Assembly: GCF_009914755.1 (NCBI RefSeq)
Contig: NC_060947.1
From: the human T2T-CHM13v2.0 reference genome, Homo sapiens
Length of the DNA: 64,000 bases
Reading direction: 5' to 3' (one strand)
Shown here: positions 49,096 through 57,714 of the stretch, in pieces
How positions within the stretch are numbered: the first letter of the stretch is position 1
Layout: each line of letters begins with the position of its first letter
Made by a program: the position numbers and the translations under genes
Notes under the pieces: model-generated
Databases searched by the model: none
The model's input: only the letters and a program-made list of their open reading frames with translations
Told to the model about the DNA's origin: nothing

Positions 49096-50509
49096 TGGCT
49101 TTCCTTGAGATTTCTTTGGCTTCTGCATTTTGGATCTCATTTGTTCTGGCTGTTTGGTTCCTGCCTGACCTTTCTTTCAAGGCATGGGTCCATACAATGG
49201 GCTTTCCATTCTTTTAGCTACCTGAAAGGGACACCCCATTAGGCCACCCCCTTGAGATCCAACCCTGAACACTGGGACCAGGCCAAAGGCAGGGAAGGAA
49301 GACTTTAGATCCCTTTTAGACCACAATTCTTTCTCCTGTATGACTTTTCATGTTAATGTCAAATAAGCATCATTTTTCTTTTTTCTCACTTTTACTTTAA
49401 CTGACCACCTTAGCCCAAGATAGGCACTGTATCCACCCACATGTGAGTGTGCAACTAGAAACTATAGTGACTTTTCTATGTCCATATGGACAATTACTTT
49501 TCTCTGGAACTCATCATTGGAATGATTTTTGTCATTGTGCTACTTATTAAGTAATAAAATATACTAATTTAAAATAAGAAATCAGATGACAATTTGTGGA
49601 AGAACATCTGAGGAGGGAAGAGAGAAGATTGTACTGAATGTATATTCTATCAAGGTCAACAGTCAGACACTGTTTCTTACAAGATAAACAAATTACTTAG
49701 AAACAAAGATGATCCAGGAAAACAAGTGCAGCCTCATTTCATATTCTGATAATTTAATCCTGTACATAATGCTAAACTCAGACTCTACAATAATGCTTAT
49801 GCAAAATCAGGACTGGTTTGACAAATGAACAATGAAAGAGGAAATTAAATTAAAGATTTAAAGAAATTATTTGAATCCCTTTTTGGTCAAAATGGGCATA
49901 TTCACATAAAAATTAAGCTCAATGAGTATAAGAAAGTTTATAAATCAGTAACTGGGAAGAATCTTATCACTTCTTCCCTCAAAGTAACTTGTGGAAGCCT
50001 AGGATGCTCCTAGGAACACTGTAAGCGATGGAGAATTTAACATAATAATGCATATTAGAACTCAGAGTAATATACTAAGTTACGATGAGTCTTTTTTTCT
50101 GGGGGATGGATGAGGTAACCCTGAACTGTGTAGAAAGATGGTGCTACAAGTGAGAGGTCATAGCTACACTTACTCTATGTTACTATCCTTCAAAATCCCT
50201 GTGCCTTAATAGTGACCAGTGGGCAGTAGTAGAAGAGATTTCCTTATATAGATCAACATTTTAGACAAATATTCAGATGACTCATTTGCATACTGCTGAC
50301 TTCAGGTAGATTGAATATTTTCCTTGCACCAAGTATGGCTTTTCTACATTTTCTCTATGCTAAATCCTATCTTTAATGATTATTTTTGTTAGTGTCCATT
50401 GAAACAAATTAGTCTGTTAGGTCTGGAACAAAGGCTTTAACAGTGTTTCCAACAACAACAAATATGTATCACACACATATTTATACTTGTACTTAAGAAT
50501 ATCAAGTCA

Positions 50510-50658
50510 CCTTTTGGTCTCAGCGACGGCAGGGCTGAGCCAGCGACACCCTGCATTCACTCTCCACTCCCGCTCTCTGGCTGTCCACCCGTTCCACTGC
50601 CCACCCCACCACCATGACTGAACAGGCCATCTCCTTCGCCAAGGACTTCTTGGCCAGA
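50510..50658 (+). pseudogene. SLC25A6: Processed 5' fragment of ADP/ATP translocase 3 mRNA (5'UTR + first ~14-15 codons)
   Basis: CCTTTT...GGCAGGGCTGAGCCAGCGAC...CCACCATG then MTEQAISFAKDFLA, the ANT3 N-terminus (ANT2 begins MTDAAVSF, ANT1 MGDHAWSF); GC-rich island in an AT-rich flank. Confidence 0.9.
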
Positions 50659-51243
50659 AGCCTCCAAGAAATATGGGACTATGTGAAAAGACCAAATCTA
50701 TGTCTGATTGGTCTACCTGAAAGTGACGGGGAGAATGGAACCAAGTTGGAAAACACTCTGCAGGATATTATCCAGGAGAACTTCCCCAATCTAGCAAGGC
50801 AGGCCAACATTCAAATTCAGGAAATACAGAGAATGCCACAAAGATACTCCTCGAGAAGAGCAACTCCAAGACACATAATGGTCAGATTGACCAAAGTTGA
50901 AATGAAGGAAAAAATGTTAAGGGCAGCCAGAGAGAAAGGTCGGGTTGCCCACAAAGGGAAGCCCATCAGACTAACAGCTGATCTCTCAGCAGAAACTCTA
51001 CAAACCAGAAGAGAGTGGGGGCCAATATTCAACATTCTTAAAGAAAAGAATTTTCAACCCAGAATTTCATATCCAGCCAAACTAAGCTTCATAAGTGAAG
51101 GAAAAATAAAATCCTTTACAGACAAGCAAATGCTGAGAGATTTTGTCACCACCAGGCCTGCCCTACAAGAGCTCCTGAGGGAAGCACTAAACATGGAAAG
51201 GAACAACCGGTACCAGCCACCGCAAAAACATATCAAATTGTAA
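50614..51243 (+). CDS. Open chimeric ORF, 209 aa: ANT3 N-terminus fused to L1 ORF1p residues ~145-338 (RRM + CTD); expression unknown
   Basis: MTEQAISFAKDFLA-R-SLQEIWDYVKRP...YPAKLS...; CCACCATG start context; no stops. Confidence 0.6.
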   Translation: MTEQAISFAKDFLARSLQEIWDYVKRPNLCLIGLPESDGENGTKLENTLQDIIQENFPNLARQANIQIQEIQRMPQRYSSRRATPRHIMVRLTKVEMKEKMLRAAREKGRVAHKGKPIRLTADLSAETLQTRREWGPIFNILKEKNFQPRISYPAKLSFISEGKIKSFTDKQMLRDFVTTRPALQELLREALNMERNNRYQPPQKHIKL

Positions 51244-51306
51244 AGACCATCGAGGCTAGGAAGAAACTGCATCAACTAACGAGCAAAATAACCAGCTAGC
51301 ATCATA

Positions 51307-57030: not shown

Positions 57031-57260
57031 GAACACATGGACACAGGACTGGGAACATCACACACTGGGGCCTGTTGTGGGGTATGGGGAGGGGGGAGGG
57101 ATAGCATTAGGAGATATACTTAATGTTAAATGACGAGTTAATGGGTGCAGCACACCAACATGGTACATGTATACATAGGTAACAAACCTGCACGTTGTGG
57201 ACATGTACCCTAAAACTTTAAGTATAATAAAAAATAAATAAATAAATAAATAAAAATAAA

Positions 57261-57564
57261 GTAATAGGAACAAAAATAAAAATTAGATATAATTAAAGAA
57301 AACTTTTCTCAATTAAATAGTGAGCTTGGCCTACAAGTATCCCTTTATTCTTAAAGATCAAATATTTCACTACAATATGTTTATTTGTCATTTCAAATAT
57401 AAAAGAATATTTTGTAAGTGTTCTATCAGGAAGTAATATAGTTTACTAATAAAAGAGCAAAAATAAGGCTAATCTGAGACATTTTCTCTGTAACTCTAAA
57501 CATTAAAGAAAGTCTATAGAGTGTTATTAATAAAAACATTGTATTATAATTTAAGAATTAAAAA
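57261..57564 (+). other. Putative L1 3' transduction (~300 bp non-L1 AT-rich DNA)
   Basis: Lies between the L1 A tail (57228-57260) and the second TSD; AATAAA at 57529-57534, ~25 nt before the terminal A run. Confidence 0.85.
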
Positions 57565-57714
57565 AAGAATATCAAGTCATGAAAATCTGTACAATCTGCA
57601 AATCAATGGAGAACCATAGGATGTACATATATTTCATGTAAATTGTTACATACTTAATGATTACTTCTGTAATCTCATCATTCAAAAACTGAAAAAAGAA
57701 AAAAATGGTTACAG

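What the first reader, a model, noticed from the sequence alone, without database searches (positions are those of the whole stretch)
50495..57579. SLC25A6(ANT3)-LINE-1 chimeric retroelement: host mRNA 5' end replaces the L1 5'UTR and ORF1 N-terminus
Seen: one 15-bp TSD pair (AAGAATATCAAGTCA, 50495-50509 and 57565-57579, TT/AAGA cut site) encloses ~150 bp of GC-rich non-L1 sequence, an L1 that starts mid-ORF1, and a 3' tail. All of it therefore integrated in one TPRT event. Knowledge: MTEQAISFAKDFLA is the ANT3/SLC25A6 N-terminus; L1 chimeras with a cellular RNA at the 5' side (U6-L1 etc.) arise by template switching or RNA ligation. Unusual: the captured piece is the extreme 5' end of an mRNA, not the 3' end typical of retrocopies, and it is joined mid-exon. 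Inference: either a one-off RT switch from L1 RNA onto ANT3 mRNA run to the cap, or a copy of a pre-existing chimeric source element, analogous to the MAST2 exon capture in SVA_F1.
Basis: partly seen in the sequence, partly recalled or inferred. Interest (0 to 1): 0.92.

Follow-up and report, generated by a model that had tools for sequence, protein, structure and literature searches.

The report
SLC25A6 mRNA start fused to L1
An old, dead LINE-1 insertion on the X chromosome carries the first ~147 bases of the SLC25A6 (ANT3) messenger RNA in place of its own front end, a one-off example of a chimera type already catalogued in the human genome.

Summary
A perfect 15-bp target-site duplication (50495-50509 and 57565-57579, cut site TT/AAGA) encloses four things.

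- **SLC25A6 piece:** 146-147 nt that match the 5' end of PAR1 SLC25A6, starting at the mRNA start.
- **L1:** it begins inside ORF1 and is joined in frame.
a younger antisense L1 at 53539-55405 with its own 17-bp duplication.
308 bp at 57252-57559, 96% identical to a chr6 locus that has no L1. This is probably a 3' transduction.

The SLC25A6/L1 junction has no GT or AG splice signal, only a 2-nt "GA" overlap. No other locus in T2T-CHM13 carries this junction, so there is no propagating family. CpG loss is similar in the SLC25A6 piece (8 of 14) and in the L1 (10 of 15), which fits one arrival time.

The best reading is one target-primed reverse transcription event in which the L1 reverse transcriptase switched from L1 RNA to SLC25A6 mRNA and ran to its cap.

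The class is known: Law & Burns 2026 list 17 mRNA/lncRNA-L1 chimeras, 15 of them from transcript starts. This locus is not on their list. It is a new member of a known kind, of modest interest. No primate outgroup was available, so co-arrival of the pieces is untested.

The parts
50495..50509 (+). 5' target-site duplication AAGAATATCAAGTCA, preceded by TT (EN site TT/AAGA)
50510..50655 (+). Copy of SLC25A6 mRNA nt 1 to about 146: a 104-nt 5'UTR (50510-50613), the ATG at 50614 and codons 1-14
   Evidence: It starts within about 2 nt of the start of an independent chr9 processed pseudogene.
50656..50658 (+). SLC25A6/L1 junction. A50656 is most simply the gene's G after CpG decay. 'GA' at 50657-50658 is shared by both parents. 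There is no GT donor and no AG acceptor.
50657..53538 (+). Host L1, first part: ORF1 C-terminal part (to the stop at 51241-51243), the spacer, and ORF2 from the ATG at 51307 (EN and RT domains; the frame is broken after 52794)
50614..51243 (+). Open 209-codon fusion frame: ANT3 residues 1-14 followed by the ORF1p RRM and C-terminal domains
53539..55405 (-). Later, independent insertion: the 3' 1.85 kb of a younger L1, antisense, with a poly-T tract at its left end. It is flanked by the 17-bp duplication AAATCACAAGCATTCTT (53522-53538 and 55406-55422).
55406..57229 (+). Host L1, second part, running to the end of the 3'UTR
57230..57251 (+). A-rich tail of the L1, of the form A(n)(TAAA)n
57252..57559 (+). 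308 bp of unique sequence, 96% identical to chr6:121799406-121799713 (CHM13). An AATAAA lies about 24 nt before its end.
57560..57564 (+). Remnant poly(A) of the retrotransposed RNA
57565..57579 (+). 3' target-site duplication AAGAATATCAAGTCA

Best explanation
This is one L1 target-primed reverse transcription (TPRT) event at a TT/AAGA site. The template was an L1 RNA that had read through 308 nt of chr6 flank and was polyadenylated after an AATAAA, so it most likely came from a chr6 source copy that CHM13 no longer carries. ORF2p copied this RNA back to the middle of ORF1. It then left the L1 RNA and continued on an SLC25A6 mRNA at about nt 147, with a 2-nt GA overlap, and ran to that mRNA's 5' end. 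Resolution of the insertion produced the 15-bp duplication. The in-frame ANT3(1-14)-ORF1p fusion is a by-product with a 1-in-3 chance. The insertion was dead on arrival: it has no L1 promoter and a truncated ORF1. A younger L1 later inserted antisense into its ORF2. Shown here: the anatomy, the parent loci, the absence of splice signals, the single copy number and the similar decay of the pieces. Inferred: the template switch itself and the order of events.
For: 1. A perfect 15-bp duplication sits directly against the first SLC25A6 base and directly after the final A run, at a TT/AAGA site.
2. The 5' piece is colinear with SLC25A6 exon 1 in sense orientation. It starts at gene position 741. 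An independent chr9 processed pseudogene, which spans all exon junctions, starts at position 742 (flanks). That places the start at the mRNA 5' end, as expected if the RT ran off the cap.
3. The junction: the gene reads TTGGCCGGAGGC, four other L1 copies read ...GAAC/GAGC/AAAC/GAAA followed by GAAGCC, and the window reads TTGGCCAGAAGCC. There is no GT after the gene part, no AG before the L1 part, and a 2-nt shared GA.
4. Single copy: of 40 scored matches in CHM13, 1 spans the junction (the window itself), 3 match only the SLC25A6 part (PAR1-X, PAR1-Y, chr9) and 36 match only the L1 part.
5. The pieces show similar decay. CpG dinucleotides lost: 8 of 14 in the SLC25A6 piece (the CpGs were counted by eye on the printed gene row) against 10 of 15 in the host L1 3' part. 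Non-CpG changes on the window lineage are 5-7 in about 118 sites, against 3.2% for the L1.
6. A pre-formed chimeric RNA would lack the ORF1p N-terminal part. The fusion aligns only from position 41 of PDB chain 2yko_A. Such an RNA would be a poor cis substrate (inference).
7. The class is documented. Law & Burns list 17 mRNA/lncRNA-L1 chimeras with TSD, EN motif and poly(A).
Against: - No primate outgroup could be examined, so co-arrival of the three pieces rests on the single duplication and on the low-power decay comparison.
- Non-CpG divergence of the SLC25A6 piece (4-6%) is nominally higher than that of the L1 (3.2%) and than half the chr6 distance (about 2%). With 5-7 events this is not significant.
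- The 5' part is not a full-length RNA copy, unlike the classical chimeras as summarised in PMC2104539. The switch therefore had to land inside an mRNA.
- Law & Burns favour splicing over template switching for most of their mRNA cases.
- The chr6 parent has no L1 within 10.4 kb upstream.
- The final A run is only 5 nt long.
Confidence: 0.72

Rival explanations
1. The chimeric RNA was formed before reverse transcription. A 5' fragment of SLC25A6 mRNA was joined to a 5'-cut L1 RNA, either by RNA ligation (RtcB-type, as shown for U6/L1) or by non-canonical trans-splicing. The joined RNA was then retrotransposed as one template.
For: It gives the same final structure: sense orientation, one duplication and the cap-proximal end retained. 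RNA ligation before retrotransposition is established for U6/L1 (PMC6789731, abstract seen in the listing). Law & Burns propose RNA-level joining for mRNA/L1 chimeras.
Against: There is no GT/AG at the junction. Such an RNA encodes no functional ORF1p and would need trans-complementation. It also needs two endonucleolytic cuts with ligatable ends. The junction shows a 2-nt overlap plus 6 of 9 in-register matches, which ligation does not predict.
Confidence: 0.1
2. Two separate events. A full SLC25A6 processed pseudogene inserted first and made the 15-bp duplication. An L1 then integrated at the start of that pseudogene's poly(A) tail with a target deletion of about 1.2 kb, removing everything from codon 15 onward.
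For: The final sequence would look the same. The nominally higher non-CpG divergence of the SLC25A6 piece points weakly in this direction. L1-mediated target deletions are known (recalled, no call).
Against: It needs three coincidences: a hit in one 1.3-kb retrocopy, a nick exactly at its tail, and a kb-scale deletion. CpG loss in the SLC25A6 piece (8 of 14) is not greater than in the L1 (10 of 15). Only 5 A's remain where two tails would have merged.
Confidence: 0.05
3. This is a copy of a pre-existing chimeric source element. An SLC25A6-L1 chimera sat at the chr6 locus and this insertion is its offspring, analogous to RAP1GDS1-L1PA2 or SVA_F1.
For: The 3' piece shows that the RNA came from chr6, and that source copy is not available for inspection.
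Against: No second locus has the junction. Such a source would lack both the L1 promoter and an intact ORF1, and 147 nt downstream of a transcription start carry no upstream promoter (inference). No sibling carries the chr6 tag: of the 3 matches, one is the window itself, one is the chr6 parent and one is a 43-nt A-rich match.
Confidence: 0.04
4. This rival concerns the 3' piece only. The element is a tripartite chimera made by two template jumps. TPRT began on a polyadenylated chr6 transcript, jumped at an A-run onto the poly(A) tail of an L1 RNA, and later jumped again onto SLC25A6 mRNA. No L1 ever sat at chr6.
For: The chr6 locus has no L1 homology from 10.4 kb upstream to 1.5 kb downstream. 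Homology to chr6 begins inside an A-run, which would give T/A microhomology for a jump. The sequence before that A-run (GTGA) is not a canonical EN site. [quoted passage not shown] A double jump was proposed in Magnaporthe (PMC2104539).
Against: 3' transduction is common and source L1s are often unfixed (recalled). An L1 tail followed by flank, then AATAAA, then poly(A) is the textbook transduction layout. There is no evidence that the chr6 region is transcribed on its own.
Confidence: 0.18

Closest known systems
mRNA/lncRNA-LINE-1 chimeric insertions ('5' transduction events') of Law & Burns, Cell Genomics 2026 (PMC13174262, Table S5)
   Same: One duplication encloses both parts. There is an EN-type cut site and a poly(A). 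The non-L1 part is the start of a transcript, in sense orientation and upstream of the L1 (15 of their 17 map to transcript starts).
   Different: This locus is not among their 17 rows. Most of their L1 parts are near full length, and 6 junctions sit exactly at splice donors. Here the L1 is cut inside ORF1 and the junction is mid-exon with no splice signals, so template switching fits better than their trans-splicing model.
Chimeric retrogenes of the U6-L1 type (Buzdin and co-workers), as summarised in PMC2104539
   Same: The 3' part is a 5'-truncated L1. [quoted passage not shown]
   Different: Those have a full-length copy of the cellular RNA as the 5' part. Here only the first ~147 nt of an mRNA whose chr9 retrocopy spans four exon blocks are present. 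The original paper (PMC169886) was not held, so its mRNA cases could not be checked.
L1 3' transduction
   Same: The layout is L1 A-tail, then unique flank, then AATAAA, then a second poly(A), then the duplication. The parent sequence is found once elsewhere, on chr6.
   Different: No L1 lies next to the parent sequence in CHM13.
RAP1GDS1-L1PA2 chimeras (Law & Burns) and SVA_F1 with the MAST2 exon (the SVA_F1 case is recalled)
   Same: Host 5' exon sequence sits at the front of a retroelement.
   Different: Those propagated, giving several insertions with different duplications. This junction occurs once and the element lacks what it would need to propagate.

Membership tests
mRNA/LINE-1 chimeric insertion (Law & Burns 2026) | A single target-site duplication flanks the non-L1 part and the L1 together | tested here: met
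   15 of 15 nt identical, at 50495-50509 and 57565-57579
mRNA/LINE-1 chimeric insertion (Law & Burns 2026) | ORF2p EN-type cleavage motif and a 3' poly(A) | tested here: met
   The site is TT/AAGA. A 5-nt A run follows an AATAAA-directed end.
mRNA/LINE-1 chimeric insertion (Law & Burns 2026) | The non-L1 part maps to exons of a gene transcript, in sense orientation relative to the L1 | tested here: met
   It maps to SLC25A6 exon 1 in PAR1, from the mRNA start, in sense orientation
mRNA/LINE-1 chimeric insertion (Law & Burns 2026) | Both parts appear at the same node in a multi-species alignment | not testable with these tools
   No primate genomes are held. The only proxy is CpG loss: 8 of 14 against 10 of 15.
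Splice-mediated chimera / SpIRE-like junction | The exon part ends at a GT donor and the L1 part starts after an AG acceptor | tested here: not met
   The gene continues GGAGGC after the junction. In the 4 L1 copies aligned, the L1 has AC, GC or AA before GAAGCC.
Classical chimeric retrogene (U6-L1 type) | The 5' part is a full-length copy of the cellular RNA | tested here: not met
   Only the first ~147 nt are present. The chr9 retrocopy shows the mRNA continues through further exons. The definition is taken from the passage.
Classical chimeric retrogene (U6-L1 type) | A 5'-truncated L1 as the 3' part, in the same orientation, directly joined and flanked by direct repeats | tested here: met
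L1 3' transduction | Unique sequence lies between the L1 tail and a second poly(A), inside the duplication, with a poly(A) signal | tested here: met
   57252-57559, with AATAAA about 24 nt before the A run
L1 3' transduction | The parent locus carries an L1 immediately upstream of the transduced segment | tested here: inconclusive
   There is no L1 homology within 10.4 kb upstream on chr6 in CHM13. The source may have been unfixed.
Propagating chimeric retroelement family (SVA_F1 / RAP1GDS1-L1 type) | Several loci share the junction but have different duplications | tested here: not met
   1 junction-spanning match (the window itself) among 40 scored out of 112 candidates

The most novel reading that the evidence does not exclude
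The element is a three-part chimera written by one reverse transcriptase run with two template jumps: chr6 polyadenylated RNA, then the L1 RNA tail, then an internal site in SLC25A6 mRNA. If so, it would be a natural human record that ORF2p can land on internal, non-3'-end acceptor sites of mRNAs by 2-nt or A-run microhomology, separate from the splicing route favoured for other mRNA/L1 chimeras.
Probability: 0.18. Interest if true: 0.45.

Novelty: new member of a known kind. Interest (0 to 1): 0.3.

Why it matters
This is a clean, fully delimited example of an mRNA-L1 chimera whose junction cannot be explained by splicing. It adds a data point for template switching onto an internal mRNA site, in a class where trans-splicing has recently been favoured. 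It also shows that the published catalogue of 17 is incomplete. The locus has no sign of function: it has no promoter, a degraded ORF2, an intergenic position and a single copy. It tells us nothing new about SLC25A6.

Tried and rejected
- **Splicing origin.** Rejected: no GT or AG at the junction. The chr9 retrocopy also reads GGA at that codon, so an ancestral GGT donor is unlikely.
- **Propagating family.** Rejected by the whole-genome search.
- **Chr6 segment as a retrocopy of the window.** Rejected: chr6 has no A run after the homology ends.
- **Nested L1 as an inverted duplication of the host's own 3' end.** Rejected: 1 shared private change against 49 host-only and 15 nested-only. The nested copy is 2.4% from the L1 at 6955-8817 and 6.2% from the host.
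- **L1 subfamily name.** No named reference was on hand, so only divergence values are given.
- **Buzdin et al. 2003 (PMC169886).** Not held.
- **Literature searches for SLC25A6 in this context.** One search found 0 papers holding all 4 terms. Another listed 10 of 263 papers, and none of the 10 contains 'SLC25A6'.
- **ORF1 numbering from locus L007.** That ORF1 is broken, so the L1 start point is given relative to PDB chain 2yko_A.
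Full report
**Observation**

The 15-mer AAGAATATCAAGTCA sits at 50495-50509 and 57565-57579, and the 5' copy is preceded by TT. In 50300-57800 only five direct repeats of 13 nt or more exist. Two of them are insertion duplications, this one and the nested one described below. The other three are matches between L1 pieces. 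Directly after the 5' copy comes GC-rich sequence with an ATG at 50614. Translation from that ATG gives MTEQAISFAKDFLA and then runs without a stop into L1 ORF1, as a 209-codon frame at 50614-51243.

**Identity of the 5' piece**

I searched the window's own genome (T2T-CHM13) with 50510-50700. Of 112 candidates, 40 were scored:
- The window itself matched at 100% over the full query, positions 1-191.
- Two PAR1 loci matched at 86% over positions 1-155 (chrX:1235606-1235760 and its chrY twin, minus strand).
- One chr9 locus matched at 79% over positions 21-140.
- The other 36 matched only positions 147/148-191, which is the L1 part.

The alignment shows colinearity with the first exon of the PAR1 gene, including the start codon. 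No tool named the gene.

The chr9 locus is a processed pseudogene. It aligns to four exon blocks of the gene with the introns removed. It begins at gene position 742, and the window copy begins at 741. The chr9 flanks show a degenerate A/T-rich duplication ending just before that point (read by eye). Two independent retrocopies ending within about 2 nt of each other put the mRNA 5' end there. The start CCTTTC is also pyrimidine-rich, like a TOP-type initiator (recalled knowledge).

**Divergence of the 5' piece**

Over 50510-50655 the window differs from the gene at 18 of 146 positions:
- 8 of the 18 lie in CpGs of the gene.
- The chr9 copy agrees with the gene at 13 of the 18, with the window at 3 and with neither at 2.

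Most change is therefore on the window's lineage: 8 CpG changes and 5-7 non-CpG changes. By my count on the gene row printed, 8 of its 14 CpGs are lost in the window.

**The junction**

The three sequences at the junction are as follows:
- The gene reads TTGGCC GGA GGC ATC.
- Four other L1 copies read GAAA, GAGC, GAAC or AAAC, followed by GAAGCCTCCAAGAAATATGGG.
- The window reads TTGGCC A GAAGCCTCC.

The simplest reading is that the gene contributes through its G at 50656, which has since become A by CpG decay. 'GA' at 50657-50658 is common to both parents, and 6 of the next 9 in-register positions also agree. There is no GT after the exon part and no AG before the L1 part, so this is not a splice junction.

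The L1-derived protein part aligns from position 41 of PDB chain 2yko_A (human ORF1p, E = 1.1e-109). It carries the Pfam RBD-like and dsRBD-like ORF1 domains. The coiled-coil N-terminal part is absent. By recalled numbering, the L1 part starts near residue 144 of 338.

**The L1 body and the nested L1**

Against another L1 in the window (minus strand, about 6955-11674), the element splits into three blocks:
- 50658-53538 is colinear at 94.1% identity.
- 53561-55405 has the opposite orientation at 97.4% identity.
- 55406-57266 is colinear again at 93.4% identity.

The middle block is a separate insertion. It has a poly-T tract at its left end and its own 17-bp duplication, AAATCACAAGCATTCTT, at 53522-53538 and 55406-55422. 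It shares 1 private change with the host L1, against 49 host-only and 15 nested-only changes. The host L1 without it is about 4.7 kb. ORF2 starts at 51307, with EN and RT domains, and is broken into several frames.

**The 3' end**

After the L1 3'UTR and an A-rich (TAAA)n tail come 308 bp (57252-57559). They match chr6:121799406-121799713 with 12 mismatches and no gaps (K2P 0.040). Homology starts inside an A-run and stops at ...AAGAATT, about 24 nt after an AATAAA. From there the window has five A's and then the duplication, while chr6 continues with unrelated sequence. So chr6 is the parent and the RNA was polyadenylated there.

A BLAST of the whole element against chr6:121789000-121801213 gave only this one hit, so no L1 lies beside the parent segment in CHM13. 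The genome search for the 3' piece scored 3 of 3 candidates: the window itself, chr6, and a 43-nt A-rich match. No sibling insertion carries the same tag.

**Are the pieces the same age?**

I made no consensus. I estimated the host L1's private branch from pairwise distances to 29 of the closest copies returned by the genome search. That search scored only 40 of 17,392 candidates, so these 29 are not guaranteed to be the closest in the genome.

| Measure on the host L1 3' part | Value |
|---|---|
| Private branch, all sites | 3.5% |
| Private branch, CpG-type columns removed | 3.2% |
| Positions differing from a 90% majority of the 29 copies | 50 of 1825 (2.7%) |
| FastTree terminal branch | 4.0% |
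| CpG-type dinucleotides retained | 5 of 15 |
| Mean CpG retention in the other 29 copies | 48% |

CpG loss is therefore 10 of 15 in the L1 and 8 of 14 in the SLC25A6 piece. The 5-7 non-CpG changes in about 118 sites compare with about 3.8 expected at 3.2%, which is not a significant excess. Nothing indicates that the SLC25A6 piece is older than the L1, but the test has low power. With recalled primate substitution rates these values suggest an age of roughly 10-25 million years. I could not name the L1 subfamily with the tools at hand.

**Mechanism**

The anatomy is what a template jump during TPRT predicts:
- Synthesis starts at the poly(A) of a read-through L1 RNA.
- It proceeds 4.7 kb into ORF1.
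- It moves to another RNA at a short overlap.
- It ends at that RNA's cap.

A pre-formed chimeric RNA, made by ligation or non-canonical trans-splicing, would give the same product. However, it would encode no working ORF1p and would need two compatible cuts.

A two-step history gives the same sequence but needs three coincidences: a pseudogene inserts first, then an L1 nicks exactly at its tail, and that integration deletes about 1.2 kb. It also gains no support from the CpG comparison.

A chimeric source element on chr6 is unlikely. Such an element would lack both a promoter and ORF1, and no other copy of the junction exists.

For the 3' piece, 3' transduction from an unfixed source is the ordinary reading. 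A first template jump from a chr6 transcript onto the L1 tail cannot be excluded.

**Comparison with what is known**

Law & Burns (Cell Genomics 2026, PMC13174262) describe 17 hg38 insertions in which mRNA or lncRNA sequence is fused 5' of an L1 inside one duplication.
- What I read: the abstract, sections 13 and 14, the first part of the discussion and all three parts of Table S5. I also ran term searches of the main text and of the four supplement files held.
- Their findings: 15 of the 17 map to transcript starts. Most of the L1 parts are near full length. Six junctions sit at splice donors. They favour cis- or trans-splicing.
- This locus: 'SLC25A6' and the 15-mer are both absent from the supplement files. 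Their only chrX insertion row is at 81.2 Mb (TPK1).

The older class of U6-L1-type chimeric retrogenes is defined, in the passage I saw in PMC2104539, by a full-length 5' RNA copy. That feature is not met here. The original paper was not held, and supplements or tables I could not see might list this locus.

Two literature searches pairing SLC25A6 with retrotransposition terms found nothing relevant.

**Verdict**

The structure is real and well delimited. It is a new, uncatalogued member of a known kind, the mRNA 5'-end/L1 chimeras. It is notable for a mid-exon, splice-signal-free junction and for carrying a chr6 tag. It is a single copy, was dead on arrival, and has no sign of function. I score interest at 0.3.

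Noticed in passing
window 53522-55429: The nested antisense L1 is truncated at the same L1 coordinate, within 6 nt, as the point in the host L1 where it inserted. This gives an inverted repeat (55388-55405 and 55412-55429) around a 6-nt spacer. It looks as if the target overhang, itself L1 sequence, paired with the incoming L1 RNA at the homologous place and set the 5' end, in a twin-priming-like way. A chance coincidence would be roughly 0.2%.
   Followed up: partly
window 53792-55360 (minus strand): A 522-codon open frame lies on the minus strand and has no Pfam match. It sits inside the nested young L1 and corresponds to the C-terminal part of its ORF2, still uninterrupted.
   Followed up: partly
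L004 (chr9:31269229-31270880 of CHM13) and L044: An SLC25A6 processed pseudogene spans all four exon blocks, with an inserted segment around L004 2636-2830 and a degenerate A/T-rich duplication. It is 79% identical to the window's SLC25A6 piece, so it is not the piece's source.
   Followed up: partly
window 6955-11674 (minus strand): Another long L1 in the window is only 2.4% from the nested L1 over the 3' 1.8 kb, and 6.3% from the host L1. There are therefore two L1 age classes within 50 kb.
   Followed up: no
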